Source of the DNA: Candidatus Hydrogenedens sp.
Lineage (GTDB): Bacteria; Hydrogenedentota; Hydrogenedentia; Hydrogenedentales; Hydrogenedentaceae
DNA length: 64,000 nucleotides
Reading direction: 5' to 3'
Assembly: GCA_049968235.1 (NCBI GenBank)
Contig: JBMFRC010000002.1
Coordinates: 1 to 64,000, forward strand
Part shown: positions 1 through 39,280 of the stretch, piece after piece
Layout of the letters: every line of letters starts with the position of its first letter
Position numbering within the stretch: position 1 is the stretch's first letter
The notes under the pieces: generated by a model
Seen by the model: only the letters and a program-made list of their open reading frames with translations
The model's database searches: none
Told to the model about the DNA's origin: nothing
Position numbers and translations under genes: made by a program

Positions 1-639
1 TACAGGTACCTGCCGAATAAAATAATTTTCAGAGATTGTGTTACTGCATTCTCTTAACAATTCTATATTAATTGTAAAACCTAATATTTCTTGTATTTTG
101 GCTTTTATTTGTTGTAAATTATCGGCGACATCATTGTATGTAAAGTTAGAGCCACCACCTCCAAACCCCAAAGATTCAAGGACACTCACGATGGATGGTG
201 TTGGATTTTCACCTTCTGGCGTGCCTTCTGGTGTTCCTTCTCCACCCTCTGCAGTTATTTTAATTGGTATCTCTACAGGAGGAACTACTTTTTTACCTGT
301 TTTGGGGTCAACCTGCGATACAATTATTTTCCCCGTATGTTCTCCTGCAGGTAATCCTTCCCGTGAGACAAGGATAGTAACTTCTTTCACATCCTTTCTT
401 TTCTTACTTACATCCTGAGTAGGCATAATGCCAACTACCCAGTTGACATTACTTTCTACCTTAAACACAAGTTTTTTAAGAATGATAAACTTATCATTCC
501 ACACTTTAATCTTTGCCTGGTCTAAGTCTTTTCCAAAGTCTATGGAAGTGGGACTTACACCAATCTTAGGGGTGCATCCTGATAACAGCAGGATGATTTG
601 TGTAACTAAAACCAGCGCTAACAAATTCTTTTTCTGCAT
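1..639 (-). CDS. Lipoprotein of unknown function, 3' end truncated by the window edge
   Basis: The reverse complement of 1-639 is open with no stop. It starts at ATG 637-639 (minus strand) with GGAG 8 nt upstream. The N-terminus MQKKNLLALVLVTQIILLLSGC has a signal peptide and LSGC lipobox, followed by a beta-rich region and a Gly/Pro/Glu/Thr linker. It is absent from the ORF track because the stop lies off-window. Confidence 0.5.
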   Translation of the reverse strand, partial: MQKKNLLALVLVTQIILLLSGCTPKIGVSPTSIDFGKDLDQAKIKVWNDKFIILKKLVFKVESNVNWVVGIMPTQDVSKKRKDVKEVTILVSREGLPAGEHTGKIIVSQVDPKTGKKVVPPVEIPIKITAEGGEGTPEGTPEGENPTPSIVSVLESLGFGGGGSNFTYNDVADNLQQIKAKIQEILGFTINIELLRECSNTISENYFIRQVPV

Positions 640-914
640 CGCTAAACTCCTCATATTTAATTGAGTTGTTATATTAATTGTTTTATCCTTTATATTCACA
701 ATTTATAAACTTAAAAAAATATATACCATATTTCTTTACTGAAATGCAAATTATTTTAAATTTTTTCAAAAAATTTTCATCAAAAAAACTTTATTAATAC
801 ACGCTTTTATATTTTGCCTTAATTTAACAAACATTTAACACATTTGTCAAACATTTTATTCCATATTTTAAAAGGAACAATCACTAAATATTACTTATAA
901 CATATTGAAAATTA

Positions 915-1898
915 TCATTTCAAGTCGTAAGGTATTTTTACTATATCTATCATTACTATCTCTGGCTGAGCATTAAAACGAACGGGTACATCTGTGGTGC
1001 CCAATCCAGATGAAGTATATCCTTTCATCTCTCGATATTCCCATTTGCCAGAGGCAAATTTCCGTTTGCAATTGGCATTGACATATATAGGTCCTAATAA
1101 CGGCAGACCAATTTGTCCGCCATGAGTATGACCACAAAGATAAAGATTTACACCCCAGAGTAATGCTTCTTCTATTACTTCGGGGGAATGGGAAAGCATA
1201 ATGTTAAACGCTTCTTTGGGAGCATGGATAATAGAAGATGCCACATCGGCACATTCAAATCCGTGTTGTACATCTACACCACTAATCCATAATTTAGCAC
1301 CGTTGTGATTTATTACTACTCCTTCATTTACTAAAATATGTATTCCGGCTTCATTAAATTTTTCCCTTACAGAACTTATGTCATGATTTCCCAATACCCC
1401 ATATATTCCATATTTTGATTCTACAGGTTCTAACATTTCTTTTATCATTGGTACAACAAAATCTTCCGGACCAAAATATCCAAAACGATAATCCCCTCCT
1501 AAAAGAATCAAATCCACAGGTGTTTGGATTTGCTGTAAAACACTTGACCCTGCAATGAACCAGGAAAGATATGTTTGTGATAAGTGCAAATCCGCAATAA
1601 ATAAAATTTTAAATCCATGCAATTCTTTGTGGATATCAGGGTAAACAAATTTTATTTTGTGTAGATTAACCCTGGAAGCATTTAATTGCCCTCTTCCATA
1701 AAGCCCTAAACATTTTAATAAAAAAGATATTGTCTTTGTTTTTAGATATTCGAAGCCATTAATTTTTTGAAATTCATCCCCTTCATATAAATTAAGTTTT
1801 TTTTCTATTTGAATTCTTTTTTCCCAGAGTTCTCTTCGTTTTAATTCAAACTCATCTATATCGGTTTGTTGATTTTTTTGGATATTTTCTTTTTCCAT
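915..1898 (-). CDS. Calcineurin-like metallophosphoesterase
   Basis: Motifs FIADLHL, LGGDY, GNHD and GHTHGGQ are typical of the metallophosphoesterase fold (YaeI-like). Confidence 0.7.
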   Translation of the reverse strand: MEKENIQKNQQTDIDEFELKRRELWEKRIQIEKKLNLYEGDEFQKINGFEYLKTKTISFLLKCLGLYGRGQLNASRVNLHKIKFVYPDIHKELHGFKILFIADLHLSQTYLSWFIAGSSVLQQIQTPVDLILLGGDYRFGYFGPEDFVVPMIKEMLEPVESKYGIYGVLGNHDISSVREKFNEAGIHILVNEGVVINHNGAKLWISGVDVQHGFECADVASSIIHAPKEAFNIMLSHSPEVIEEALLWGVNLYLCGHTHGGQIGLPLLGPIYVNANCKRKFASGKWEYREMKGYTSSGLGTTDVPVRFNAQPEIVMIDIVKIPYDLK

Positions 1899-1904
1899 TT
1901 TTAC

Positions 1905-2738
1905 TTAACAGAAAGATTCCAGATGCCATGTTGCTTTTATAAAACCTTCTTCACGAGATTGACAACTATCTTCGTGTTCAATACTTAAAACACCATCATA
2001 TCCATTGTGTTTCAGATGACTAATATATTCTCCCCATCGTATAACACCAAACCCGGGCAATACATACCTCCACCATCCTTCTCCATAAATACCTGTTTTT
2101 GACTTTTTTGTATAATCAATCAATATATCCTTTGCATGGGTATGGAAAATCCGATTCTTATATTCATACACCGGGAATAAATAATCGCATTCTTGATGAA
2201 CCAGATGAGAAGGGTCATAATTTAATCCGAAATTATCGTCGGGTATTGCTTTAAATATTTCCTCGAAGGTATCCAATCCTTGCAAATTTGTCTGATACCA
2301 ATTTTCCAAAGCAATTCGAATATTTTTTTTGCGAGCATGGGATAAAATAGGTGCAAATGCCCTGGGTAGAATTTTTCGTATTGTCTCAATTTTGCTCATA
2401 CCCGAAGCCGGAAAACCACTCAACATACAGATTGTATCCACTCCCAGTTTAACAGCGGAATCTATCACTTGCTTTGCGGTTTCTTGAACCATTTTACATT
2501 TCTTAGGGTCTGTTATTGAAGCATCATAGTAAGCAAGAGAAGTAATAACACAACATTGGTTTTCCAGCTTATCACGAATGGATTTAATTTTATTTTTATC
2601 TAATTTTACCGGGTCAATATGAAGACTCCCTGGATACGAAATAATTTCCAGACCTGTTATATTTGCTGTTTCTGCAAAATCAATTACTTTATCCAATGTT
2701 TGGTCAGCAAATGCTGCTGTTAACATTCCGACAAACAT
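1905..2738 (-). CDS. Sugar phosphate isomerase/epimerase (xylose-isomerase-like TIM barrel)
   Basis: Contains IALENW, HTHAKD and SIEHED motifs. The likely start is MFVGML at 2738, with AAGGAGG 7 nt upstream. The track ORF start at 2816 is an upstream extension. Confidence 0.65.
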   Translation of the reverse strand: MFVGMLTAAFADQTLDKVIDFAETANITGLEIISYPGSLHIDPVKLDKNKIKSIRDKLENQCCVITSLAYYDASITDPKKCKMVQETAKQVIDSAVKLGVDTICMLSGFPASGMSKIETIRKILPRAFAPILSHARKKNIRIALENWYQTNLQGLDTFEEIFKAIPDDNFGLNYDPSHLVHQECDYLFPVYEYKNRIFHTHAKDILIDYTKKSKTGIYGEGWWRYVLPGFGVIRWGEYISHLKHNGYDGVLSIEHEDSCQSREEGFIKATWHLESFC

Positions 2739-2803
2739 ATTACCTCCTTTACAAAAAATAAATAGAAAATTAGGCAAGTAAATATTTATATATAGGAAAA
2801 CCG

Positions 2804-4232
2804 TTATTTTGCCCAAATAATATCATAATATTTTTTTACCTGTCCTTTTAATAATTTTAAGTTCTCGATAACATCCTTATTTCCACCCGCATATTCAATC
2901 ATCAATCTTCCTTCTTCAAAACACATCTCATCATGTAAAGGCAAGACATAACGTAATAAGAAGTGGGTATAAGCAACTAAACGATAAGGTCCATAAGGAC
3001 GGGGTAATTGTCCACCAGGAGTTTCAACTGCGACCGCATTTTCTTCTTTAATTGCATGAATTAAATCATTAAATTCAAGCGAAGGAGAAAAGCAAAGGGT
3101 GTAATATCTTCCAAACATATCATGATTCTCACAACTGTGGCTGTCACTAATTCCTACAATAGGGACTTTTTTCCCTTTTGATTTTGCTTCGATGTATTTT
3201 GCTAACTGTAAATTATTCACATCTACCTCTTGCAGTTCATCCCAACTGAAACCACTGATAAGTTCTACTGCATCAAAAATTGTTGTTTCGTATAAATAAT
3301 CTACTAACGCATTTGCAATATAATTTGTATTTCCCGGTCTCCAATAGGGATGAGCAAAAATACCTAATCCACCTCTTTCTCTAATTTTTTGGAATGTCCA
3401 CAAACAGGAAGCATATTGGAATTTATCCACGCCATAAGGCATATCACCAAGAGTATTCATTATATTTTGAACCTCTTCGCGATAAGTTTTATCATCTGTT
3501 CTGTAAAGTTCTGTAATTCCTTCTTTTGCTCCAAAACTTACAAAATGAACCGGATTATCCGGAGGATGAACTTCTTCTGCAGGGTAAATACGCAAATCAA
3601 TGGGCAAACCTTCAAATTGTTTAATTGCCTCTAATGAACCTGAATAATTTCGATGGTCTGATAAACCCATAAAATCATAACCTACTCTTCTGCATGCTTC
3701 CGACCACGTATCCTGGAGATTCTTTGCCGTCTGAACGGTAACTATGCATATGGAAATCCCCTTTATAGGGACGAAGAGCGAACAAATCAGGTTTTAAGGA
3801 ATATACATGAAAATTGCCTATTTCTTTGACCTTATTATCTGGGGTAATTTCTTCTAATCGAAAGATGTGTTCCTGTTCTGCTTCAAAATATTTTTTTATT
3901 GTGAATATATTATTCTGTGGCACGATTTCTTCTGCCTGAGCCTTAGTCCAACCTGTCTGTGTTGCATATCTTCCGACAGGGGTATAAGTCATCCTATAGG
4001 TATGAAGTGGTTTGGGGAAAGCATCAAATCGTGAAATAATTTGAATTGTAGTTTCTTTATCCGCAGGAACTATACGAGGAACAACTTGGAAATAACGGTC
4101 AGGGGCGTAGGCTTTTAAACCGCTGGGAAGTGCTGGTGTGAACAAACCTTGTGAATAGGATTGAACGCAACAAAAAACCCAGAACAAACAGAAAGATACT
4201 GTTATGAGAGTTAAATGTGCTCTTTTCATCAT
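2804..4232 (-). pseudogene. Secreted PHP-domain phosphoesterase split by a 1-nt frameshift near 3680-3700
   Basis: ORF 3675..4232 has a signal peptide (MMKRAHLTLITVSFCLFWVFCC) and ends in PHP motif I GDFHMHSYRSDG, then stops after 16 more codons. ORF 2804..3670, shifted one frame, reads upstream as ...QDTWSEACRRVGYDFMGLSDHRN (PHP motif II) with no stop. Removing a single nucleotide in gaatctccagg joins them into a canonical PHP N-terminus. Confidence 0.55.
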
Positions 4233-4347
4233 TTTTCTCCTAAATCATTAAATTGTTTTATATATATTCAAATATAATAAAATAAAGAGAATTTTAATTG
4301 TAAAAGAAGTAAAAACACAAACTAAAAATATTAATTCAAGTATAGAT

Positions 4348-5319
4348 ATGTTTCTTTATTTACTGACAACTGTAATTTGTTTCTCTGTTTCACAAACAAA
4401 TATACCACTTTCAACAAATTCCCATCAGCCTATTCGTAACTATTGGGAACATATCCAGGGATTAATCCAACAGTTTGATGAAATAAGAGAATCCGACATT
4501 CCCAATAAAACAAGATATTCTCGGACAGTTAATAAAAAGTATCCATTTGACTTATTTCGTTCGCTAACTCCACGTGAACTTATACGGGCATGTCGTGAAA
4601 GTATTAAATCAGCAAGAGAAGAAGGAAAACAGAAACACTGGACTGAAGAAGAAATCTCTCTCAAATGTGAAGAAAATATCAGTTATGCTCTGGAATACTG
4701 TGGAATCTTGATAGAGAAAAGTTCAGAAGTTGACTACTTGATATTTAGTATGGGGGAGGAGCAAGAAGAACCAGAACTTCGATTGTTTTTATTAAATCAG
4801 TGTATCCCTAACAGAAAGTCAAAAAGTTTGTTCAGTCTCCACTTTCAGATGCTTTTAAATAAAAGAGCGGAGGAATATCTAAAAACGCTATCGATAATAG
4901 TAAAAAGGGTAACCGAAAAACCTAACATCCAGATAGCAGGAATAGATGCGTTATACTCATTTTTTCTGGAACAATATCAGAAATGTATTATAAAAGACCC
5001 TATTTATCAGGCATACGCTAATGAAAAACATGAAAAGATAACTCCTTTGTGGTTAGAAAATCCACAAATTCCGAAACCATTAGAAACCACACAAATGGAA
5101 ATCAATAAACTGGACCGTCAGTTAGAAGATTTCATCGTTCAATTGGAATTAAAAATTACTGATAAACGACAGATTCACGAAGCAGTTGCAAAAAAATCAA
5201 AAGAAGTGTTAGAAAAGATATACAATAATTTACCTGTTAAGGGAAAAGAGCGATTAAAAACCTTTATATCGGGTGATATACCACTATCAAAAAAATCAGG
5301 AAATAGGGATACTTCGTAA
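4348..5319 (+). CDS. Hypothetical helical protein
   Basis: A 323-aa ORF with a hydrophobic N-terminus and no recognised motif. Its stop overlaps the next start (TAATG). Confidence 0.4.
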   Translation: MFLYLLTTVICFSVSQTNIPLSTNSHQPIRNYWEHIQGLIQQFDEIRESDIPNKTRYSRTVNKKYPFDLFRSLTPRELIRACRESIKSAREEGKQKHWTEEEISLKCEENISYALEYCGILIEKSSEVDYLIFSMGEEQEEPELRLFLLNQCIPNRKSKSLFSLHFQMLLNKRAEEYLKTLSIIVKRVTEKPNIQIAGIDALYSFFLEQYQKCIIKDPIYQAYANEKHEKITPLWLENPQIPKPLETTQMEINKLDRQLEDFIVQLELKITDKRQIHEAVAKKSKEVLEKIYNNLPVKGKERLKTFISGDIPLSKKSGNRDTS

Positions 5320-6101
5320 TGCTGACAAGCAAACAAAAACTAAAACAGGCGGAAAGTTTGTACGAGGAAAAGAAATATACCGAGGCATTAAAATTACTTG
5401 ATGAACTTGAACAGGAAAATCCGGGAGAAAAGAAAGTTGCTTATGGTCGTGCCATGTGTCTTGCACGATTAGGAAATTTTGCTGATGCTATGCTTTTATG
5501 CGATGAGTTATTAGCCCGTTATAGAGACGAGAAAGCAAAAGTATTAAAAGAAAAAATAATGCAATGGGCAGAAGAAGCCAATGCATTACATCATACATTA
5601 ACAAAAGAACCTCAATCTCCCCCATCTATTATTTGGGAATATACAAAAAGGGTTTTGTGGCTTTTACTATTTCTGTTTTCCATAGGAATGCCTTTCATAG
5701 GATGGTGGGGACTTATGGTAACTATTAACAAAGACTGGATTTCGGTATCACTCGAGGGGACTTTAACCTTTGCGATACTCTGGCCACTTCTAATGCAAGG
5801 TTTTTTCTGGCTATCCTTACAAGGGACAAGGGCTCAAACATTTGGAGATACTAAAGTTATTGGGATAACTAACTGGTTTTTAGATACTGTAATACTTACC
5901 TTTTTAAATCTATTTCCAATTATCGGTTGGTTCTTAGGTGCATGGTGGCTTATGGTAAAAAGAGAACTATCTTTTAGTTCTTCCTTTGCATTGATGATAT
6001 TAAACTTTTTTCTCTTCTGGCTATCTTTTTTAGGAATAGTTGCAAGTATTGGACTGGGTGGATGGGCATGGATTTTAGCCCCTTATATATTAAAAATGTA
6101 A
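5319..6101 (+). CDS. Membrane protein with TPR-like N-terminal region and about 5 TM helices
   Basis: The N-terminus (EEKKYTEALKLLDEL...YGRAMCLARLGNFADAM) resembles TPR, followed by hydrophobic Trp-rich helices. Confidence 0.4.
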   Translation: MLTSKQKLKQAESLYEEKKYTEALKLLDELEQENPGEKKVAYGRAMCLARLGNFADAMLLCDELLARYRDEKAKVLKEKIMQWAEEANALHHTLTKEPQSPPSIIWEYTKRVLWLLLFLFSIGMPFIGWWGLMVTINKDWISVSLEGTLTFAILWPLLMQGFFWLSLQGTRAQTFGDTKVIGITNWFLDTVILTFLNLFPIIGWFLGAWWLMVKRELSFSSSFALMILNFFLFWLSFLGIVASIGLGGWAWILAPYILKM

Positions 6102-6146
6102 TTATAAATCTAAATATTATATTTAATTTTATAGTCACCGATTCTT

Positions 6147-7736
6147 ATGAATAAAAAGGTTGTTGTTATAGGCTGGGATGGGGCAACTCGACAGGTAATT
6201 GAAAGGGGAATAAATGAAGGGTGGTTGCCTACATTAAAATCATTTATCTCGGAAGGTTCTTTTCTCAATCTTTCTTCCACTATACCACCCGCAACCATTC
6301 CCGCATGGACATCCTGTTTTACAGGTGTTAACCCCGGTAAACATGGTTATTTCGACTTTACTGAAATAATGAATGGAACTTATCAAATCCGTTTTACCAA
6401 TGGCTCTTTTCGTAAATTCCCGGCTGTCTGGAATTGGCTAACAAAAGCAGGGGGAAGAAGTATTGTAATAGGAGTTCCTGGCACATATCCTGTAGAAAAA
6501 ATTAATGGGATTATGATTTCTGGTTTTGTATCGCCTTTACCCGGAAAAATTACACCCGAACAGGTATATCCACAAGAAATCTTTTCCTCTGTAAAAAACT
6601 GGGGATATGGTGGTATCAATGAAAATAATATAAAAAAAGGATGGCACCAACAAGCAGTAACAAAATTATTAGAACGATTAAAAAGAAAGGAGCAAATTAT
6701 ATTAAACCTATTGGAAAATGAAGACTGGGACCTTTTTATTTCCATATTCAACGAGACAGATACGGTAAGTCATCATTTCTGGATGTTCTGGGATGAATCC
6801 TCTCCCCGCTATCAGAATGGTTTTAAGGATGCCATACCAACTATTTATCAACACCTCGATACAATTTTCTATAAAATCGTAAAAAAAATTCAAAGAAAAT
6901 ATAACAATTGCTTAATTTTGATTGTATCAGACCACGGTTTCCAATCTTCCAGTAAAACCGTACTATATATCAATAATTGGCTTGCTCAAAAAGGTTATTT
7001 GCATTTCCGTTCTGATAGAACCCCTTTATTAAAAAATCTTGCTTTAAAACTATTTCCTTATAATCTCCAAACTTCTCTATTCAGGTATTTCAAAGGTTAT
7101 GTTGAGAAACTGGAAAGTCAATCTCGTTTTTCAAGGATTGACTGGCTAAGTACTTCTGCTTTTTCAGAAGAATTAGATTATTTTCCATCCGTAAGAATTA
7201 ATTTGAAAGGTAGAGAACCTCATGGAATTATTCCCGAAGAGAATTATTTTGAATTTATTTATCATTTATGTGAGGAATTAAAAAAATGGCAATTTGTAAA
7301 AAATGCTCATTTTCGAGAAGATTTATATAAAGGTCCTTATACAGAAAAAGCACCTGATATAATACTTGAATTAAAAGAAGATAATGGGGCTATACCTTGT
7401 TGTGTTCGTTCCAGAGGCACGGACACATTTCACATTCTTCATTCTAACGAATTTCAAGGGACAAAAGGACAAGGTATGAATGGTCATCACAAAAAGGAAG
7501 GGATTCTATGCATATCTGAAAAGGTTGATAATAAGAGTGCTAGAATTGAAGATGTAGCAAGCACCATTGCTGGAGTTATGCAAATCCCGTGTCCGCCCCT
7601 TGATGGGAAACCATTATTAGGTTCCTTACTAATAAATAATGATTTTCAATTTCCTGATAGCGAAGAAAAAGAATTAACTCCTTATGAAGAATGGTTATTA
7701 ACCCAACAAATGAAAATGATAGGTTATTGGCAATGA
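6147..7736 (+). CDS. Alkaline-phosphatase-superfamily phosphodiesterase/nucleotide pyrophosphatase-like protein
   Basis: VVIGWDGATRQ at the N-terminus, IPAWTS, and a LILIVSDHGF (DHG) metal-site motif. Confidence 0.6.
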   Translation: MNKKVVVIGWDGATRQVIERGINEGWLPTLKSFISEGSFLNLSSTIPPATIPAWTSCFTGVNPGKHGYFDFTEIMNGTYQIRFTNGSFRKFPAVWNWLTKAGGRSIVIGVPGTYPVEKINGIMISGFVSPLPGKITPEQVYPQEIFSSVKNWGYGGINENNIKKGWHQQAVTKLLERLKRKEQIILNLLENEDWDLFISIFNETDTVSHHFWMFWDESSPRYQNGFKDAIPTIYQHLDTIFYKIVKKIQRKYNNCLILIVSDHGFQSSSKTVLYINNWLAQKGYLHFRSDRTPLLKNLALKLFPYNLQTSLFRYFKGYVEKLESQSRFSRIDWLSTSAFSEELDYFPSVRINLKGREPHGIIPEENYFEFIYHLCEELKKWQFVKNAHFREDLYKGPYTEKAPDIILELKEDNGAIPCCVRSRGTDTFHILHSNEFQGTKGQGMNGHHKKEGILCISEKVDNKSARIEDVASTIAGVMQIPCPPLDGKPLLGSLLINNDFQFPDSEEKELTPYEEWLLTQQMKMIGYWQ

Positions 7737-8839
7737 GTCTTAAAATAGCATTTGTAGCAGGGTGTCCGTATCCTGTTCCTCAGGGTTCACAGGCATTTAT
7801 CCGTGAAAATGCTCTTGCTTTACAAAAAAGGGGACATGATATTCATTTGATTGTATATGGATATGGGACAAATCATTCTACTGATAATTTCCAGATACAT
7901 CGATGTCCTAACATACTCGGTGAAAATCGGACTTCTGCAGGCCCTTCTATAAAAAAAATCTGGCTCGACCTGCTTATGGTAAAAACAGTTCAAAAAGTCT
8001 GTCATGAGCAAAAAATTCAAGTACTATTCGCACATAATTATGAAGGTCTTATTATTGCTCTCCTCTCTGGCTTCCGTCCTGTTATCTATCATGCTCACAA
8101 TGCAATGAGTGATGAATTGCCTTATTACTTTAATCGTGGAAAAAATTTTTTTGCTTTATTAGGCAAATACATTGATATGAAATTTCCACAAAAAGCAAAT
8201 TATATAATTACACCTCATGAACGACTTGGAGCCAATTTATTACTAAAGGGAATAAAAAAAGAAAAACTCTGTATCATTCCTCCCCCGGTAGATTCTATAT
8301 CCTTCCCGGTAAGTCAAATACAAAAAGATATCCTTCCCCCTATTTTATACACAGGCAATTTAGACCAATATCAAAACCTCGATTTTCTTTTTCATGTCAT
8401 AGACCGTGTGCGAAAAGAAATCCCGGAAACACGGCTAATTATAGGGACATTTGAGAAACAAAAAATACAAGGAGCAGAACTTGTCCATATTGGCACATTT
8501 GATTCGTTAAAAAAACTGCTCAAAGAAGATTCCATAATGGCAATACCTCGTGTCTCATGGTCTGGCTATCCCATTAAACTACTAAATGCAATGGCAAGTG
8601 GAAAACCTATAGTTTGTTGCGAAAGTTCCGCTTATGGAATTCAAAATGGTTTCAATGGAATAGTTGTTCCGGATAATGATATAGAAAGTTTCGCTCAATC
8701 ACTTATTACACTTATGAAAACACCTTCCCTTCGTGAAGAATTAGGGAAAAATGCTCGTAATACTATTCAAGTCAAACACAATCCTGAGATTATAGGGAAA
8801 ACATTAGAAGATTTATGTCTCTTATGTATTCAGAAATAA
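7733..8839 (+). CDS. Glycosyltransferase family 4
   Basis: GT-B architecture with MSLKIAFVAGCPYPVPQG...HAHN and a C-terminal CCESSAYGIQNGFNGIVV E-x7-E-like region. The start ATG 7733 overlaps the upstream stop (ATGA). Confidence 0.6.
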   Translation: MSLKIAFVAGCPYPVPQGSQAFIRENALALQKRGHDIHLIVYGYGTNHSTDNFQIHRCPNILGENRTSAGPSIKKIWLDLLMVKTVQKVCHEQKIQVLFAHNYEGLIIALLSGFRPVIYHAHNAMSDELPYYFNRGKNFFALLGKYIDMKFPQKANYIITPHERLGANLLLKGIKKEKLCIIPPPVDSISFPVSQIQKDILPPILYTGNLDQYQNLDFLFHVIDRVRKEIPETRLIIGTFEKQKIQGAELVHIGTFDSLKKLLKEDSIMAIPRVSWSGYPIKLLNAMASGKPIVCCESSAYGIQNGFNGIVVPDNDIESFAQSLITLMKTPSLREELGKNARNTIQVKHNPEIIGKTLEDLCLLCIQK

Positions 8840-10453
8840 TCAATTTAATTTTTCTTTCCGAAAACGATGAAACACAGTCCATGTTTCCCAAATCAGTAAA
8901 ATAGCGAGGAAAATTAATAACCCTGCAATGATAACTAATATATATTGATGACTACGGAAATTGCTTATCATGAAGAGTATTAGAGCTGAAATGGTAGTGA
9001 TAAGCATAAAAATCATAGGAATCTGAACAAAGTGATATTTTTTCCCCAAGCCTCTTGCAACCCAAACCATAATTCCGAGTAAAGCAATACCAGCGACCAA
9101 TTGATTGGACGCTCCAAAAATAGGCCAGATGATTTTCCATGCGGGCGTATCCCCCGTGCGAATAAAAAGCAATAACATTGCAGTAATAACACTAATTATT
9201 GTTGCTGAAAAACGGTCTAATTTCATTTTACTGAGTTCTTGCAATTGATAGCGTGCTAATCGAGTAGATGTATCCAATGTCGTCAATATAAAGGAATTAA
9301 CTGCCAGCATACCTAACGATTTTCCCAAATCCGGGTTAATGTGGATAATTCCTGCAAACTTTGCGAAACCTTCTCCAAAAACAGCGAGAGGTCCCCCTTT
9401 TTCAGGGATTTTCCCAACCAACATAATACAACCCAATGCAATAATTGCCACGAAACCTTCTAACAACATAGCCCCATAACCCACAGGTTTTGCATCGGTC
9501 TCACATCTTATTTGTTTTGAGGTAGTTCCACTTGCAACCATACAGTGGAAACCGGATACCGCACCACAAGCAACCGTAACAAATAACATAGGCCAGAGAT
9601 AAGTATTTTTATCAGGAACAAATGATTTAAATACAGGTAGAGAAATGTCAAATGAATTTCCCCCTAAAAATATTCCGATACTGGCAATTAATACAGCAAA
9701 ATATAGCAAGTAAGAAGCAAGGTAATCCCGTGGTTGAAGTAATAGCCATACAGGCAAAACGGAAGCAAAAAAGATATAAACAATTAGTAACCAGCGCCAT
9801 GTTTCCATTGATAATATAAAATTTTCTTGAATAAAATTCATCTTACCTATCCATACAGATACTAAAACAAGAGGAATAGCAACGATAGAGCCATATAAAA
9901 GTGGAATACGAAACCGATAAATCATTATCCCAAAAATAAGGGCTAAGAAAATATATAATGTTGCAGAAAAGGCAACCGCAGTGTCCTGAACAAAGCTATC
10001 TGCAGATAATTGTAAGAACACAGCAATTACCAAAACCAAAGCAAGCCATGTGAAACATAAGAACAAAATTTTTGCCTTTCGGCTCACCCATTGGTCTATC
10101 ACCTCTCCCATAGATAAACCTTTGTGTCTCATAGATGCTACCAACGACCCGAAATCATGAACACCTCCAATAAAAATGGAACCCAACACTACCCATAAAT
10201 AAACTGGAAGCCACCCAAACCAACCTCCCGCAGTAATAGGACCCACTATAGGACCTGCACCGGCAATAGATGCAAAATGATGTCCTAATAAAACAGATGG
10301 GTGTGCGGGACAATAATCAATCCCATCATATTGTTCTTCCGACGGAGTTTTCCGGTCATTTCTTAAATCGAACAGGCGTACTAAAAAATTTCCGTATGTA
10401 AAATAAGCACCGACAAAAAGAACGATTCCAAGAATTGTTAAAAGCAAAATCAC
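8840..10453 (-). CDS. cstA: Carbon starvation protein A family transporter
   Basis: The CstA signature GHHFASIAGAGPIVGP is present with many TM helices. The probable GTG start at 10451-10453 has GGAGGG 8 nt upstream; the track start at 10459 is TTG. Confidence 0.8.
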   Translation of the reverse strand: MILLLTILGIVLFVGAYFTYGNFLVRLFDLRNDRKTPSEEQYDGIDYCPAHPSVLLGHHFASIAGAGPIVGPITAGGWFGWLPVYLWVVLGSIFIGGVHDFGSLVASMRHKGLSMGEVIDQWVSRKAKILFLCFTWLALVLVIAVFLQLSADSFVQDTAVAFSATLYIFLALIFGIMIYRFRIPLLYGSIVAIPLVLVSVWIGKMNFIQENFILSMETWRWLLIVYIFFASVLPVWLLLQPRDYLASYLLYFAVLIASIGIFLGGNSFDISLPVFKSFVPDKNTYLWPMLFVTVACGAVSGFHCMVASGTTSKQIRCETDAKPVGYGAMLLEGFVAIIALGCIMLVGKIPEKGGPLAVFGEGFAKFAGIIHINPDLGKSLGMLAVNSFILTTLDTSTRLARYQLQELSKMKLDRFSATIISVITAMLLLFIRTGDTPAWKIIWPIFGASNQLVAGIALLGIMVWVARGLGKKYHFVQIPMIFMLITTISALILFMISNFRSHQYILVIIAGLLIFLAILLIWETWTVFHRFRKEKLN

Positions 10454-10481
10454 AATCAAACCCTCCTAATTTACATTTTAC

Positions 10482-10509
10482 AAATTATATCACATAAATT
10501 ATATCACAT
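10482..10509. repeat. Perfect tandem direct repeat 2 x AAATTATATCACAT in the divergent promoter region
   Basis: Copies at 10482-10495 and 10496-10509 are identical. They lie 29-56 nt upstream of the cstA start and about 90 nt upstream of the carbonic anhydrase start. Confidence 0.8.
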
Positions 10510-10599
10510 AAAAAAGTCAAACTATCATAGGGAAAATTTATGGAATATTTTTTGTTTACTTTATGTATACAATTAAAAAATTATATAAGGAGATAAACA

Positions 10600-11175
10600 A
10601 TGAGCCATAGATTAAACGAAGTTCTTTCTGCCAATAAGAATTATGCCCAACATTTTGATAAAGGTTCTCTACAGATACCCCCAGCAAGACAATTTGCAAT
10701 ATTAACATGTATGGATGCAAGACTTGACCCTGCTAAATTTGCAGGATTATCAGAAGGAGATGCCCATGTCATTCGCAATGCTGGAGGGAGAGCAAGCGAT
10801 GATGCCATCCGCTCATTAGTTATATCCCATAAACTTCTGGGAACAAAGGAATGGTTTGTAATTCATCATACCGATTGCGGAATGCAACTGTTTACAAATG
10901 AAATCATGCATGCATTATTATCGGAAAGCCTTGAAACAGCGGTTTTTGATGGGAAGCAATGGAAAAATCCCGTAAAAGGGAATGGGTCTTCATTTGGACA
11001 ATATATAAATTGGCTTACATTCACAAATCTCGAACAGAGTGTAATTGATGATGTTGAAAGGATAAAAAAACATCCATTGGTCCCAAAAACGGTTCCCATT
11101 TATGGTTATATTTATGATGTCCACTCTGGAAAACTGATTGAAGTACCTAAAGCCACTGAAATTGGGGCGTTATAA
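10600..11175 (+). CDS. Beta-class carbonic anhydrase
   Basis: CMDARLD and HHTDCGM zinc-ligand motifs. AAGGAG lies 7 nt upstream. Confidence 0.8.
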
Positions 11176-11268
11176 AAATTGTTTTAAAGATTTCGTTTTT
11201 AATCATTATCCCTTCTGGCTTACAATATAAGTTTACTCTTTATTCAATATAAGTCATAAGGGAATATT

Positions 11269-11859
11269 ATGGAACTTGAGATTAATATTAATGATATAAC
11301 AATTTCTGGCAAATCATCTGCATTTATTATTGTGGACATGCAAAATGATTTTGTCCATCCAAATGGAAAATTGTTCTCCTCCAATGCACAAAAGATTATT
11401 CTGCCAATTAAATTATTAATAGACAAAGCAAGACAATCAAATGTAAAGATAATTTACACACAGGACACACATTTTCACGATGACCCCGTAGAATTTCCTA
11501 TCTGGGGGGAACATGTAATTAAAGGGAGTTGGGGATGGCAAATCATTGATGAACTAAAACCACAAACCCATGATATTGTCATAGAAAAACTTCGCTATGA
11601 TGCATTTTTTGGAACACCTCTGGAACATATCTTGAAAATTTATAGAATTGAAACTGTGATTGTTGCTGGGACCGTTGCGAATATTTGTGTCTTACATACC
11701 GTTTCATCTGCACGACTACACAATTACAATGTAATCGTTCCAGTAGATTCTATCTCTGCCCTAACTGAATTTGATTATTCCCTTACTCTTCGACAAATGG
11801 ATTTCCTTTATAAGGTAAAGTTTACAAATGCAGAACTCATTCAATTTCAAAGTAATTAA
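11269..11859 (+). CDS. Isochorismatase-family cysteine hydrolase
   Basis: IIVDMQNDF at the N-terminus, and VAGTVANICV carries the catalytic Cys context. Confidence 0.7.
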   Translation: MELEININDITISGKSSAFIIVDMQNDFVHPNGKLFSSNAQKIILPIKLLIDKARQSNVKIIYTQDTHFHDDPVEFPIWGEHVIKGSWGWQIIDELKPQTHDIVIEKLRYDAFFGTPLEHILKIYRIETVIVAGTVANICVLHTVSSARLHNYNVIVPVDSISALTEFDYSLTLRQMDFLYKVKFTNAELIQFQSN

Positions 11860-11953
11860 AATATTACCCATTTCCCCAATAAAGAAATATTAAGTCTTTT
11901 GCTTTATTTTGTTATAATTTGGTCATAACATTACAAAAAAAGTACCCTTTTAT

Positions 11954-12952
11954 ATGGATATAAAAAATAAATTACAACAGATATTTATATCATTTCTTTT
12001 ATTTTTTGTTTTGGGCTGTAGTCAACTTACAATCACCCCGAAAACAATTCACTTCGACCCTGAGGAAAATCTCAAAACTTTTGAAATTATTCATCGCGGG
12101 AATTCAGATGCTAAAATTGCAATAACTATTACTCCATCTAAACCCTGGTTGGAAGTTACACCGAATGAAGCCATTCTCGGGAAAAACGACAAAATATCTA
12201 TACAAGTATATCTAAACCGTCTTTACTCTTATACAGAAAAAGTATATCCCGAATATGCAACTGCAAATATTAATATAAAAAGTTTCTTTGAAACTTATTC
12301 TATACCTATTACAACTGCTCCGAACTATTTTACGGAGATATTTGATAAAAATATTGACCTTGCATATAAATCTTTGTCCTTTATGCCAGATAATAGCCTG
12401 AACTTTTATAAACTTACATCAAATCATATAAATGATTTTTCAACAAAGCCTGATGAAAAAACCATAATTAATTTTTCATTGTTCAAAAATGTATATACAC
12501 TCCAAATTGCTGATGAAAAAAAAATACTTTTTTATGGGCAAAGTTATAATACTCTTTATATCTCATATCTCGGCTGGATAGAGTTTCAAAATTCTGCATC
12601 ATCATCCAGAACAAAAAGTGAAAAAGGTACAACGGAAATAGAACGACACTTTCGCTCTCCCCGCATTTCTATTTTTCCAATAAATAATATAAATAATGCA
12701 GGGACTATATCCTATGCACAATTACAAAACAGGATAGTTATTATTTATGAAAATGTTCCTACTTATCAGAACGAGAATAGGGAAGCAAAGAATACTTTTC
12801 AAATAGAATTTTATTTCACTGGCAAAATAAATATTAACTACTTAAATGTAGATACAAATGCAACAGGAGTTATTGGGCTTTCTTACGGTACAGGAGATTA
12901 TATTACTCCACCGGGCTTTTTACCGAGCGATTTAGTTTCCTTATCTCATTAA
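11954..12952 (+). CDS. Lipoprotein of unknown function
   Basis: Signal peptide with VLGCS lipobox. The beta-rich N-domain resembles that of the lipoprotein at 1-639. Confidence 0.4.
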   Translation: MDIKNKLQQIFISFLLFFVLGCSQLTITPKTIHFDPEENLKTFEIIHRGNSDAKIAITITPSKPWLEVTPNEAILGKNDKISIQVYLNRLYSYTEKVYPEYATANINIKSFFETYSIPITTAPNYFTEIFDKNIDLAYKSLSFMPDNSLNFYKLTSNHINDFSTKPDEKTIINFSLFKNVYTLQIADEKKILFYGQSYNTLYISYLGWIEFQNSASSSRTKSEKGTTEIERHFRSPRISIFPINNINNAGTISYAQLQNRIVIIYENVPTYQNENREAKNTFQIEFYFTGKININYLNVDTNATGVIGLSYGTGDYITPPGFLPSDLVSLSH

Positions 12953-12984
12953 TTTATTCTCTATGGCTTAGAAAGGAAATCCAT

Positions 12985-15501
12985 TTGCAAAAGATACACA
13001 AAAGAAATATACCATGGATTTTATTGTTTATATTATGCTTAGGAATTTGTCTTCGTATTTTATATCTAAAAGAAATTAGTAAAGAACCCTGGTTTACAAA
13101 TCCACTCTATGACCCCCAATATAATGATTACTGGGCAAAAGGTATTGCCACAGGAGATTGGACACTTCCTCCTTATGTAAATGACCCTGAAATTCGAACT
13201 ACTCCTCATGGTAGGCCTCCAGGGTATCCTTATTTACTTTCTTTAATATATCTCATTTTTGGTAGAAATCAATGGGCACCCAGAATAATTCAATACCTAT
13301 TTGGCATTTTAAATGTTATCCTTGCATGGTATTTATCTCAAAAGTATTATAGTTTACGTTTTGCCAATTTGCTTGCTCTTTTCATGGCAACTTTCTGGGG
13401 ATTTATCTATTTTGAATCCCAACTAACTTATCCTGTATTTGCAATAACGCTACTTCTCCTATGGTTCTTTCTAATACTTCAATGGAAAGAAAAAAATAAT
13501 AAAAAACTTTATCCCTTTCTATTAGGATTTGTCCTGGGAATATTTGCTCTCTTTCGACCCAATGGATTACTTTTACTTATTTTGTTCCCATTCCTATTTT
13601 TTTTATTTGTTCCTACAAAGCCATCTTTTTCCCGTTTGTTTATTCTGTTCTTTTTATTCTTATTCGGGATAACTATTCCTATAATCCCCTGTTTTATCCG
13701 AAATTATTTCGTCGCTCATGATTTTGTATTTATATCTTCTTATGGGGGACTAAATTTCTATGTTGGAAATCATCCGAAATCAAATGGAGCAGAACCTCGA
13801 ATACCGGAACTGAAAGAATGGATTGGATGCGATGAATGGTCCTGCTTCGATTATCCTGCAATTGTTAGAGGATTAGGGAAAAGTTTAGGAAAATCTGCAT
13901 TTTCTTTTTCCGAAGCCAATAAGTATTTTTACAAATCCGCATTTAACAACATTCGAAATTATCCCAATGAATGGCTATCATTAATCCTAAAAAAATTTCT
14001 TTTATTTTGGGGTCCTGCGGAAATCACAAATGATACTGTCCCTGCATGGGATAAATACTATTCAAAAATTTTAAAACCCCTTCCGGGCTTTTCTATATAT
14101 TTTGCATTATTTATTACAGGAATAATTACTGGATTATCCTCCTTCTTTCAAAAATCCAAAGAAGAGAATTATCTTAAAAAGTTGTTTGTTTTAATACCTT
14201 TATTAATTGTAATCATTTATTTCTTTTCGGTGCTTCCCTATTTTGTTGCCAGTAGATACCGTATTCCAATAATGCCTTTTATTATGATTTTGGGGGTTTA
14301 TTCTATCGATGAATTTATAAATGCTATACAAAAAAACAAAAAAACAAAAATCTTTCTTATTATTGCTTTGTTCTTTGTTGCCTTTTTTATAGGCAGTAAA
14401 AATCTAACAGGTTATCAGCCATCTCAATCCATATGGTTTTTCCGGAACGGTGTCTCAGCCTCATTAGAAGGAGACGAGACAAAAGCAAAGTTTTACTATA
14501 AAAAAGCATTAGAACTTGACCCCAATAATCTTTTTGCGCGTATAAACTATTCTCAGGTATTAGGAAGAATGGGCAGACCTTCTGAAGGCATTTATATTCT
14601 GACAAGAAACTTCTCTCTGTCTCTTTCTTCACCATCCGAACTTAATGCATTAGGTTATTTATTTGAAATAATAGGAGACTATGAGAAAGCACAATATTTT
14701 TATTCTCGTGCTATTGTAAGTAACCCTTCTTTTACTCTGGCTCACGCAAATATCGCTAACCTTTTTTTCAATCAACATCGTTTCGTCGAAGCAAAATGTC
14801 ATTACGAGATAGTTTCATCACTTCAGCCCAGTAATCCCATTTCTTATTTTCAGTTAGCACGAATCGCCGAGTTTGATAGAAAATATACAGAGGCTATTCT
14901 TTTTTATGAAAAATCTTTAAAACTAAATCCCCAATTCTATATTGCATGGAATAATCTTGGTTGGATTTATGAACAAATAGGAAATAAAAGGGGAGCAGAA
15001 CAAGCATATAAGAAATGTATTCAAATAAAACCGGACTATATCCTTGCCAGAATTAATTATGCTAATCTTCTTATCCAATCCGAACATTTCTCCGATGCCC
15101 AAAAACAGATTGATACCGTTTTAAAATATGCCCCCACAAATTGCCAGGCTTATTTGCTCCTCGGGAATATTTACATTAACCAATATGAATTGATTAAGGC
15201 AGTTATAGCCTTCCAAAAATCTCTGGAACTATGTCCCGATAATGCAAATGCATGGAATAACCTCGGATTAGCCTTATCTCTCTCAGGACAGGAAGAACAA
15301 GCCTGCGAAATGTGGCAAAAGGCCTTAGAGTACAACGATACATTGGTAGAAACTTATATAAATCTTATTATCTTTTATGAGAAACAAGGGAAAATTGAAA
15401 AGGCTCTTTCTATCTTAAAAAAAGCGATGGAAAAAATCCCTGATAATGAAGAGATAAGTTCCATATACAAACGATTGACTCAAATAAAACAGGTTTTATG
15501 A
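12985..15501 (+). CDS. GT39/ArnT-like polytopic membrane glycosyltransferase fused to C-terminal TPR repeats
   Basis: About 11 TM helices with RPPGYPYLL and other PMT_2-like features. The C-terminal 330 aa contain at least six TPR units (AWNNLGWIYEQIGN...). TTG start with AAAGGA upstream. Confidence 0.5.
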   Translation: MQKIHKRNIPWILLFILCLGICLRILYLKEISKEPWFTNPLYDPQYNDYWAKGIATGDWTLPPYVNDPEIRTTPHGRPPGYPYLLSLIYLIFGRNQWAPRIIQYLFGILNVILAWYLSQKYYSLRFANLLALFMATFWGFIYFESQLTYPVFAITLLLLWFFLILQWKEKNNKKLYPFLLGFVLGIFALFRPNGLLLLILFPFLFFLFVPTKPSFSRLFILFFLFLFGITIPIIPCFIRNYFVAHDFVFISSYGGLNFYVGNHPKSNGAEPRIPELKEWIGCDEWSCFDYPAIVRGLGKSLGKSAFSFSEANKYFYKSAFNNIRNYPNEWLSLILKKFLLFWGPAEITNDTVPAWDKYYSKILKPLPGFSIYFALFITGIITGLSSFFQKSKEENYLKKLFVLIPLLIVIIYFFSVLPYFVASRYRIPIMPFIMILGVYSIDEFINAIQKNKKTKIFLIIALFFVAFFIGSKNLTGYQPSQSIWFFRNGVSASLEGDETKAKFYYKKALELDPNNLFARINYSQVLGRMGRPSEGIYILTRNFSLSLSSPSELNALGYLFEIIGDYEKAQYFYSRAIVSNPSFTLAHANIANLFFNQHRFVEAKCHYEIVSSLQPSNPISYFQLARIAEFDRKYTEAILFYEKSLKLNPQFYIAWNNLGWIYEQIGNKRGAEQAYKKCIQIKPDYILARINYANLLIQSEHFSDAQKQIDTVLKYAPTNCQAYLLLGNIYINQYELIKAVIAFQKSLELCPDNANAWNNLGLALSLSGQEEQACEMWQKALEYNDTLVETYINLIIFYEKQGKIEKALSILKKAMEKIPDNEEISSIYKRLTQIKQVL

Positions 15502-15569
15502 AAATGATTTCGTTAAATTTATATAATTTTATAATTTAGTATAGAAAATAACCATAAGGAGTGGTAACA

Positions 15570-36060: not shown

Positions 36061-36091
36061 TAATTATATTATACTGCTAATTATATTATAC
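36061..36091. repeat. Perfect 14-bp direct repeat TAATTATATTATAC x2 separated by 3 bp
   Basis: Copies at 36061-36074 and 36078-36091. They sit in the 75-bp gap between the two minus-strand hybrid kinase genes, and the second copy overlaps the upstream kinase stop codon. Confidence 0.8.
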
Positions 36092-39000: not shown

Positions 39001-39280
39001 CAGTAGAACTGCTCCTGTTTTTTTTCTGTATTCTTTTTTTCCAAATCTGCATCCAGTATTGTGATGAAGATGGAATTATATTTTCTCCTCGTGGGTAACA
39101 TACTTCAACAAATTCGTTCAACAAATGTGTCTCCAATTTAATGCCTCGCACAGAACCTATTAGCCGTCTCTTCGTCTCCTTATCACAATATTCAATAGTC
39201 CCATCCGCCGAGCAAATAAGGAAACTTACTGTGGAATTTTTCAATAACTGGATAACATCTCTTATTTTAAGGGTTGACAT
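36086..39280 (-). CDS. Soluble PAS/GAF hybrid histidine kinase with C-terminal receiver
   Basis: H-box IAHDYNNILVGILGNAELAL, G-box DTGSGM...GRGLGL, and REC VVDDEESV...LDLTMPELDG. Multiple PAS and a GAF-like module, with no TM segment. Confidence 0.7.
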   Translation of the reverse strand: MSTLKIRDVIQLLKNSTVSFLICSADGTIEYCDKETKRRLIGSVRGIKLETHLLNEFVEVCYPRGENIIPSSSQYWMQIWKKRIQKKNRSSSTDNWGSFGIHIKDEKSNLHKILFFIYPITDEKLLDTLLEEDAHILKILEHFSILVIQINSSGEVLYVNEYIKNLTGWLPSEVLGKNWFETFVPDEICEETIQFFQANRLKTNTNDILFEGEIVTKDKKKLLMLWACFPVKQGQGVQSMLILGQELSTPHREKFFMRGIRVIKNQFHWLCGDLVHGIPEEEAFSKILHSAIEITSMEAGAIFKLNPREITLVSAEGLEDKITKLLQHVSKNNLVIETIFSSNDVIEISSMVDSFPVNLRERGFAKIFAIPIRTSENPVGCVVLATTRKDMLDGEIIPLLNSISCEVGWLFLWYEVLELQRRQGRQYELLEQMLPYALLSVDETGEIIGINRGGIRLLGADYEEELLKNKIQRFIPNWYEWVNKLGQNEEIKTSDIQEIEIENLKGERIPTEFIVGHFLLASRSFYMVFLRDVRWRKQAIETIQKAEERYKELFENANDIVYTHDLTGRFTSLNKAGIHITGYSLEEALNMNAFDILAPEYHNEVKEQIRKKLVGAPPTKYEVEIIAKDGHRIPLEVSTRLIYEKEKPVGIQGIARDITDRRRAEEERKRLEMQILYAQKLESLGVLAGGIAHDYNNILVGILGNAELALARLPDDSPIRTYLKRIEESAQRAAELTNQMLAYSGKGVIATRPLNLSRLVEEMKPLLSAIVSKKAIVEYDCPDNLPSIHGDAIQLHQVLMNLITNASESLGESPGKIVIQIKVVDLTREHIKESYYFEPVEPGKYICLEVSDTGSGMSKEVIPRIFDPFFSTKFAGRGLGLASVLGIVRGHKGTINVYSEPGKGTCFKVYFPVSETIKKEEMVQEEEQKKYEKEMFETGKISSAILVVDDEESVLEVANESLTQFGYKTILARNGREALELFNKYKSELTAVVLDLTMPELDGLEVFQEIKKVNKNIPVILCSGFPEQDVHQRFEGIKPSGFIQKPYRPFDLIKLLKSVIGDTV

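What the first reader, a model, noticed from the sequence alone, without database searches (positions are those of the whole stretch)
2804..4232. Secreted PHP-domain phosphoesterase interrupted by a single-nucleotide frameshift
PHP motif I (GDFHMHSYRSDG) is at the C-terminus of ORF 3675..4232. PHP motif II (…RRVGYDFMGLSDH…) is in the next ORF, in a frame shifted by one, and that frame stays open upstream across the junction. Removing one nucleotide around 3685-3695 (gaatctccagg) restores one continuous 475-aa signal-peptide-bearing PHP protein. This is either a real pseudogene, a sequencing or assembly indel, or, less likely, a programmed +1 frameshift.
Basis: seen in the sequence. Interest (0 to 1): 0.55.

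Follow-up and report, generated by a model that had tools for sequence, protein, structure and literature searches.

The report
Recently frameshifted exported PHP hydrolase gene
A gene for an exported metal-dependent PHP-family hydrolase in a Candidatus Hydrogenedens genome is broken by one extra base that a near-identical strain and all other relatives lack, so it is an ordinary, very recent gene inactivation and not a recoding signal.

Summary
On the minus strand, ORF 4232..3675 (185 aa) ends just after PHP motif I (GDFHMHSYRSDG). ORF 3670..2804 (288 aa) carries the other PHP motifs in the +1 frame, and that frame stays open for 119 nt across the junction. The lesion is one extra A in GGA[A]GCA at window 3698/3699. 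Removing the A gives a 475-aa protein. It has 387 full-length homologues, a PHP profile match that spans the junction, and a confident model: signal peptide, FN3-like sandwich, PHP barrel and helical tail. All 28 related loci fetched read through in one frame. One near-identical MAG contig (GCA_049969095.1) differs from the window by 3 SNPs and one gap over 13.9 kb, and that gap is this base. Another MAG (GCA_049971155.1), which differs from the window by SNPs, carries the same extra base. dN/dS against orthologues is 0.03-0.06. The most likely reading is a real, very recent loss-of-function allele that is polymorphic among near-clonal Hydrogenedens populations (about 0.8). A sequencing artefact is less likely (about 0.14). 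Programmed +1 frameshifting is effectively excluded. This is ordinary and of low interest.

The parts
3675..4232 (-). 5' fragment ORF (185 aa): signal peptide, beta-sandwich domain, first PHP strand with HxH (H161, H163) and D168, then 7 out-of-frame residues (SMQKSRL) and TGA at 3677-3675
2804..3670 (-). 3' fragment ORF (288 aa from the internal ATG) in the +1 frame. It carries the remaining invariant PHP residues (D192/H193, E219/E220/H222, H229, H294, D363/H365) and the C-terminal helical domain. NCBI annotates it as 'PHP domain-containing protein'.
3698..3699 (-). Site of the 1-nt insertion: coding strand GTC GGA [A]GC ATG (AA) versus GTC GGA GCA TGC (A) in the near-identical intact contig. 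On the + strand this is GCATGCTTCCG versus GCATGC-TCCG.
3675..3793 (-). 119-nt zone where both reading frames are open (last upstream +1-frame stop at 3796-3794; frame-0 stop at 3677-3675)
4149..4232 (-). Predicted Sec-type signal peptide (residues 1-28: MMKRAH + hydrophobic LTLITVSFCLFWVFCCV + QSYSQ). The model shows helix 2-26 followed by a low-confidence linker at 27-30. Sequence is variable in homologues up to the conserved LFTPALPSGL.
   Evidence: cleavage site inferred by eye, no signal-peptide predictor available
3795..4100 (-). N-terminal beta-sandwich (FN3/Ig-like) domain, residues about 45-146
   Evidence: FN3 5dft, TM-score normalised to target 0.69
2993..3773 (-). PHP (beta/alpha)7-barrel domain, repaired residues about 154-413, interrupted at residue 178/179 in the first helix
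2807..2986 (-). C-terminal helical domain, repaired residues about 416-475 (HDEMCFEEGRLM block conserved; H433, D434, C437, E440, G441 and M444 invariant)
4237..4241 (-). Shine-Dalgarno AGGAG upstream of the gene's ATG. The internal ATG at 3670 has only a weak TAGG 12 nt upstream.

Best explanation
The locus is a single gene for an exported PHP-superfamily metal-dependent hydrolase. Its layout is signal peptide, FN3-like beta-sandwich, PHP barrel and helical tail, 475 aa in all. In this strain it has acquired a genuine 1-bp insertion (A to AA at window 3698/3699, codon 179). Translation from the normal start ends after 178 native plus 7 foreign residues. That product keeps the signal peptide, the sandwich domain and the first metal-binding motif (HxH, D168), but it lacks the other invariant PHP residues. 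The downstream ORF holds those residues but has no signal peptide, no HxH and no good ribosome-binding site. The enzyme is therefore inactivated, making this a nascent pseudogene. The event is very recent and still polymorphic: a 99.97%-identical population has the intact junction, and the gene shows no other decay. What is shown: the exact indel, its absence in all relatives, its presence in two distinct assemblies, and the fold and motif assignment. What is inferred: that the base is real in the DNA (no reads were available), export, and loss of activity.
For: 1. Only the repaired protein matches PHP, and the match crosses the junction. Pfam PF02811 covers residues 159-214 and NCBIfam CehA/McbA covers 156-401. 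PDB PHP proteins 3e0f and 3e38 align through SDGxxxPxxxVxxAxxxGxDxxxxxxH.
2. There are 387 homologues. Most of the 120 listed are about 470-490 aa and cover 90-100% of the query, and the junction consensus is SPAYVAGACRRAG.
3. DNA alignment to syntenic intact orthologues L002 (85% nt) and L003 (77% nt) shows exactly one internal gap, at this site.
4. tblastn gives one frame in all 28 related loci. Only the window and L001 show two frames.
5. GCA_049969095.1 contig JBMFPN010000025.1 aligns to window 2817-16749 over 13,933 nt with 3 SNPs and 1 gap. That gap is the extra base, and the contig reads GYVVGACRRVGYDF.
6. GCA_049971155.1 contigs differ from the window by 2 SNPs in 8,899 nt with no gaps, and they carry the same extra base.
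7. Each fragment has two NCBI protein accessions on two contigs, the longest 279,092 bp.
8. dN/dS of the repaired gene against five orthologues is 0.03-0.06, and is similar in both halves.
9. No other obviously split gene appears in the 64-kb window, so the assembly is not indel-prone.
10. The AF2 model has pLDDT 92.5. Foldseek finds PHP structures 3e38, 2anu, 7ug9 and 2yb1 at probability 1.0.
11. The invariant residues are divided between the two fragments.
Against: No raw reads could be examined. The 'intact' contig diverges from the window within the gene's last 4 codons at its contig end, so no fully canonical copy of this exact allele was found; the repaired 475-aa and 474-aa sequences are not in the 15-billion-protein collection. 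Loss of activity is inferred, not measured.
Confidence: 0.8

Rival explanations
1. The extra base is a sequencing, consensus or polishing artefact, and the gene is intact in the real organism.
For: A single-base indel in a 2-nt homopolymer is the kind of error that long-read consensus can make. The source contig is long (279 kb), which is compatible with long reads. A near-identical assembly is intact. The gene is otherwise under strong purifying selection.
Against: The same extra base occurs in a second assembly with different contig breaks and SNPs (6.2-kb contig). It is the only indel in 13.9 kb and 8.9 kb of inter-assembly comparison. The 64-kb window has no other visibly split gene. AA versus A is not a long homopolymer.
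Confidence: 0.14
2. Programmed +1 ribosomal frameshifting, or another form of recoding, produces the full-length enzyme from the interrupted gene.
For: The +1 frame is open for 119 nt across the junction. Four codons in that zone could re-pair in +1: CCC_T (155), AAA_G (157), GGG_G (158) and AAA_G (170).
Against: To keep invariant Y175 and R181, the shift must occur within codons 175-178 (TAC GTG GTC GGA). None of these can re-pair in +1, and no stop or rare codon sits there. Shifting at codon 170 would replace invariant E171 and Y175. Shifting at 155-158 would destroy the HxH motif. No relative has the frameshift, including one at 99.97% identity. There is no A/T run for transcriptional slippage.
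Confidence: 0.01
3. The split is functional. The two ORFs are expressed separately, the second by termination-reinitiation (TGA followed 4 nt later by ATG), and they act as two polypeptides or with new roles.
For: The stop at 3677-3675 and the ATG at 3670 are 4 nt apart. NCBI annotates both as CDSs.
Against: The C-terminal piece lacks a signal peptide, so it would be in a different compartment from the exported N-terminal piece. The cut lies inside the first helix of the barrel and separates the invariant motif I residues from the others. There is no good SD. No relative is split.
Confidence: 0.04

Closest known systems
BVU_3505 of Bacteroides vulgatus (PDB 3e38), a two-domain protein with a predicted PHP-like metal-dependent phosphoesterase domain
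   Same: It is the best structural match (Foldseek E 7.7e-11, probability 1.0). Sequence aligns over PDLxxxxxxKxDFHMHSxxSDG...GxDxxxLxxH. It is also a PHP barrel with an extra domain and has no characterised substrate.
   Different: Identity is only 18%, and TM-score normalised to the query is 0.36. The domain layout differs: here an N-terminal FN3-like sandwich and a C-terminal helical bundle. BVU_3505 is not interrupted.
TM0559 (PDB 2anu), RNase AM/YciV-TrpH (7ug9, 9etk) and Cv1693 3',5'-nucleotide bisphosphate phosphatase (2yb1): stand-alone PHP phosphoesterases
   Same: They share the (beta/alpha)7 PHP barrel (Foldseek probability 1.0, TM-score normalised to target 0.44-0.68) and the HxH...DH...E...H...H...DxH residue pattern.
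   Different: Identity is 14-18%. NCBIfam equivalog scores are far below their cut-offs (nucleoside bisphosphate phosphatase 26.6 against 400; RNase RNM 15.5 against 375). Those enzymes are cytoplasmic and lack the signal peptide and the sandwich domain.
CehA/McbA family metallohydrolase (NCBIfam NF038032)
   Same: It is the longest profile match, covering residues 156-401 at E 5e-17.
   Different: The score of 62.3 bits is below the curated cut-off of 80, and only profile positions 3-215 of 315 are covered. The protein is therefore not a member by NCBI's criterion.
prfB-type programmed +1 frameshift
   Same: A +1 shift would be needed to join the two ORFs.
   Different: There is no slippery codon, no in-frame stop at the shift site, no correctly spaced SD stimulator and no conservation.

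Membership tests
PHP superfamily (Pfam PF02811) | Profile HMM match at or above the gathering score | tested here: not met
   The repaired protein scores 24.8 bits against a gathering score of 26.4 (E 3.1e-5, residues 159-214). The two fragments alone give no hit. Some full-length homologues do carry precomputed PF02811 hits.
PHP superfamily (Pfam PF02811) | Conserved metal-ligand motifs: HxH, (D)H, E, H, H, DxH | tested here: met
   H161, H163, D168, D192, H193, E219, E220, H222, H229, H294, D363 and H365 are invariant in 41 sequences. Their role as metal ligands is inferred from the family pattern and was not verified structurally.
PHP superfamily (Pfam PF02811) | (beta/alpha)7 barrel fold | tested here: met
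   The AF2 model has pLDDT 92.5 and pTM 0.88. Foldseek matches the solved PHP proteins 3e38, 2anu, 7ug9, 3o0f and 2yb1 with probability 1.0.
CehA/McbA metallohydrolase (NF038032) | Score at or above the curated cut-off of 80 bits | tested here: not met
   62.3 bits
Frameshift pseudogene (recent loss-of-function allele) | A single indel relative to intact orthologues, with the rest of the gene colinear | tested here: met
   There is one internal gap against L002, L003 and L032. All 28 relatives read in one frame.
Frameshift pseudogene (recent loss-of-function allele) | The indel is real in the DNA (reproducible, read-supported) | tested here: inconclusive
   It is present in two SNP-distinct assemblies. 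Raw reads were not available.
Programmed +1 ribosomal frameshift | A slippery P-site codon at the required position plus a slow A-site codon or stop | tested here: not met
   Codons 175-178 (TAC GTG GTC GGA) cannot re-pair in +1, and the A-site codons are ordinary.
Programmed +1 ribosomal frameshift | Conservation of the frameshift among orthologues | tested here: not met
   It is absent from every relative, including a strain at 99.97% identity.
Phase-variable contingency locus | A homopolymer or short tandem repeat tract long enough for slipped-strand mispairing | tested here: not met
   The site is A versus AA. The only run of 4 or more in the overlap zone is GGGG at 3761, which is not the variable site.

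The most novel reading that the evidence does not exclude
The gene may be under active, possibly selected, loss or on/off polymorphism in this near-clonal Hydrogenedens population. Two MAGs carry the codon-179 frameshift. The only MAG with an intact junction has a different lesion: its last three residues, including near-invariant W473, are replaced by a 37-aa hydrophobic tail at a breakpoint next to a foreign convergent gene end. These would be two independent hits on one exported phosphoesterase among genomes that otherwise differ by about 2-3 SNPs per 10 kb.
Probability: 0.1. Interest if true: 0.35.

Novelty: new member of a known kind. Interest (0 to 1): 0.1.

Why it matters
The main value is for annotation. 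The two CDSs deposited for this locus ('hypothetical protein' and 'PHP domain-containing protein') are halves of one gene and should be one frameshifted pseudogene. The intact family has more than 380 members in Hydrogenedentota, Aminicenantes/Acidobacteriota, Verrucomicrobiota and Clostridia. It is an uncharacterised exported PHP hydrolase that sits in a conserved phosphoesterase-rich neighbourhood, so it could merit study. The frameshift itself teaches nothing new about recoding or gene structure.

Tried and rejected
1. I scanned JGI metagenome contigs for either allele with GGATACGTGGTCGGAN{0,1}GCATGCAGAAGAGTAGG. There were 0 matches, so that source adds no allele counts.
2. Exact-protein look-ups of two other window ORFs (15561-17774 and 36086-39280), meant to fetch more of the sister assemblies, found nothing on record, probably because of start-codon differences.
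3. A third contig (0.2-1 Mb class) carrying the neighbouring 529-aa protein was counted once but never shown.
4. The exact repaired 475-aa and 474-aa sequences are not in the protein collection.
5. A paper search for the assembly accessions returned nothing, so the sequencing platform is unknown.
6. Programmed +1 frameshifting, transcriptional slippage and phase variation were considered and rejected on sequence context and lack of conservation.
7. Membership of specific PHP equivalogs (PolX, nucleoside bisphosphate phosphatase, histidinol phosphatase, RNase RNM) was rejected because scores are far below the cut-offs.

Full report
**Observation**

On the minus strand, ORF 4232..3675 (185 aa) begins with a signal-peptide-like N-terminus. 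It ends ...RPYKGDFHMHSYRSDGKESPGYVVGSMQKSRL*. ORF 3670..2804 (288 aa) begins MGLSDHRNYSG.... The second ORF's frame is +1 relative to the first. It is open from window 3793 (last upstream stop 3796-3794) past the first ORF's TGA (3677-3675), a 119-nt overlap zone. In that frame the residues before the ATG read ...SEACRRVGYDF. The only error is positional: 'gaatctccagg' lies at 3722-3712, not 3685-3695.

**Where the lesion is**

I compared the gene at the DNA level with two syntenic, intact orthologues. These are L002 (Logan SRR25213502, 85% nt identity) and L003 (ENA ERZ724020, 77%). The alignment shows exactly one internal gap, at GTC GGA [A]GC ATG versus GT. GGA GCA TG.. A near-identical contig, L032/L033 (GCA_049969095.1, JBMFPN010000025.1), pins it to one base. 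On the + strand the window reads GCATGCTTCCGACC where that contig reads GCATGC-TCCGACC, so the extra base is at window 3698/3699. Removing one A gives a 475-aa protein reading ...SDGKESPGYVVGACRRVGYDFMGLSDH...

**It is one gene**

- Neither fragment alone matches any Pfam family. The repaired protein matches PHP (PF02811) over residues 159-214, across the junction at 178/179. The score is E 3.1e-5 and 24.8 bits, slightly below the 26.4-bit gathering score.
- NCBIfam CehA/McbA metallohydrolase matches residues 156-401 at 62 bits, below its cut-off of 80.
- PDB PHP proteins 3e0f and 3e38 align through the junction.
- A search of 5.8 billion proteins returned 387 homologues. Most of the 120 listed are about 470-490 aa and cover 90-100% of the query, and the closest is 93% identical.
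- In a 41-sequence alignment the junction consensus is SPAYVAGACRRAG. The invariant residues include H161, H163, D168 / D192, H193 / E219, E220, H222 / H229 / H294 / D363, H365. The frameshift separates the first three from the rest.
- tblastn of the repaired protein against all fetched loci gives one reading frame in all 28 related loci. Only the window and L001 give two frames.

**What the intact protein is**

An AlphaFold2 model built on the alignment is confident (pLDDT 92.5, pTM 0.88). Its parts are:

| Residues | Feature |
|---|---|
| 2-26 | N-terminal hydrophobic helix, followed by a low-confidence linker |
| about 48-146 | beta-sandwich |
| 154-413 | alternating beta/alpha barrel |
| 416-472 | helical bundle |

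- Foldseek against the PDB finds PHP phosphoesterases at probability 1.0. These are 3e38 (BVU_3505, E 7.7e-11), 2anu (TM0559), RNase AM (7ug9, 9etk), 3o0f/3e0f and Cv1693 (2yb1). Fibronectin type III matches the N-terminal domain.
- The protein is thus an exported PHP-superfamily metal-dependent hydrolase of unknown substrate. Export is inferred from the sequence pattern.
- It does not reach the cut-off of any curated equivalog.
- The neighbourhood is conserved in orthologous loci. It reads PHP, AP_endonuc_2, Metallophos on one strand. A 323-aa protein, a TPR membrane protein, a Phosphodiest (PF01663) protein and a GT4 glycosyltransferase are transcribed divergently.
- The organism is a Candidatus Hydrogenedens sp. 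(Hydrogenedentota). The nearest species representative, Ca. H. terephthalaticus, is 91% identical at the protein level.

**Real mutation or artefact?**

Three near-identical MAG assemblies cover the site.

- **The window.** Its fragments have NCBI accessions on two contigs, the longest 279,092 bp.
- **GCA_049971155.1.** Contig L001 is 6.2 kb and overlaps window 1-5270 with 1 SNP and no gap. A second contig, L034, shows 1 SNP in 3,629 nt. This assembly carries the same extra base.
- **GCA_049969095.1.** L033 overlaps window 2817-16749 over 13,933 nt with 3 SNPs and a single gap. That gap is the frameshift base, so this assembly reads through.

The SNP patterns show three distinct consensus genotypes. 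The frameshift is shared by two of them, and it is the only indel in 22.8 kb of comparison. The 64-kb window is otherwise tightly packed with long ORFs and has no other visibly split gene, so the assembly is not indel-prone. The context (A versus AA) is not a long homopolymer. All of this favours a real variant. I put it at about 0.14.

**Age**

NG86 dN/dS of the repaired gene against five orthologues is 0.03-0.06 and is similar in both halves. There are no further stops or indels. Together with the intact 99.97%-identical strain, this makes the lesion very recent.

**Recoding**

To keep invariant Y175 and R181, a +1 shift would have to occur at codons 175-178 (TAC GTG GTC GGA).

- None of these codons allows P-site re-pairing in +1, and no stop or rare codon follows them.
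- The re-pairable sites in the overlap zone are codons 155, 157, 158 and 170. Shifting there would destroy the HxH motif or replace invariant E171 and Y175.
- No relative conserves the shift.
- There is no A/T run for transcriptional slippage and no repeat tract for phase variation.

Programmed frameshifting is effectively excluded.

**Consequence (inferred)**

- The 185-aa product would be exported, but it lacks most of the barrel and the invariant residues that follow D168.
- The 288-aa ORF lacks a signal peptide and HxH. It has only a weak TAGG 12 nt upstream of its ATG, whereas the true gene start and the downstream gene have AGGAG/AGGAGG.
- Termination-reinitiation (TGA, 4 nt, ATG) is conceivable but would give a cytoplasmic, incomplete barrel.
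- The enzyme is most likely inactive in this strain.

**Verdict**

This is an ordinary, recent, probably real single-base frameshift in an uncharacterised exported PHP hydrolase gene. GenBank currently annotates it as two CDSs. Interest is low. One loose end remains: the 'intact' contig diverges from the window inside the gene's last four codons, at its contig end. If that is real, it would be a second independent lesion in the same gene.

Noticed in passing
window 2804-2817; L032/L033 1-123: The only assembly with an intact junction (GCA_049969095.1, JBMFPN010000025.1) diverges from the window at 2816/2817, inside the last 4 codons of the PHP gene. WAK* is replaced by a 37-aa hydrophobic tail, so the gene is called as 509 aa. 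On the other strand, the 123 nt at the contig end read as the C-terminus of a different, convergent protein (…KEVKKELVTANSNNVDDVDL*). This is either a structural variant or a chimeric contig end.
   Followed up: partly
window 915-8839 and orthologous loci L002, L003, L033: The neighbourhood is conserved and rich in phosphoesterases. It holds the PHP hydrolase, an AP_endonuc_2 (xylose-isomerase-like TIM barrel) protein and a Metallophos protein on one strand. On the other strand are a 323-aa protein with no Pfam hit, a TPR membrane protein, a type I phosphodiesterase (PF01663) and a GT4 glycosyltransferase. The AP_endonuc_2 gene is absent in L003.
   Followed up: partly
window 1905-2816 (-): The mechanical ORF list starts this gene at a TTG (2816) that overlaps the PHP gene's end. 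The likely true start is the ATG at 2738, preceded by AGGAGG, which gives the 277-aa product called in L001 and L002.
   Followed up: partly
homologues P0001-P0120; loci L006-L031: The roughly 470-aa family occurs in Hydrogenedentota, Aminicenantes/Acidobacteriota, Verrucomicrobiota and, at about 40% identity, gut Clostridia. The Clostridia matches start only at query residue about 102, so they cover only part of the sandwich domain. Most members have no precomputed Pfam hit, so the family is poorly covered by current profiles.
   Followed up: no
window 1-664: The + strand ORFs 38-418 and 428-664 are probably spurious. L001 shows a 526-aa minus-strand gene starting near window 639 and running off the window's left end.
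   Followed up: no
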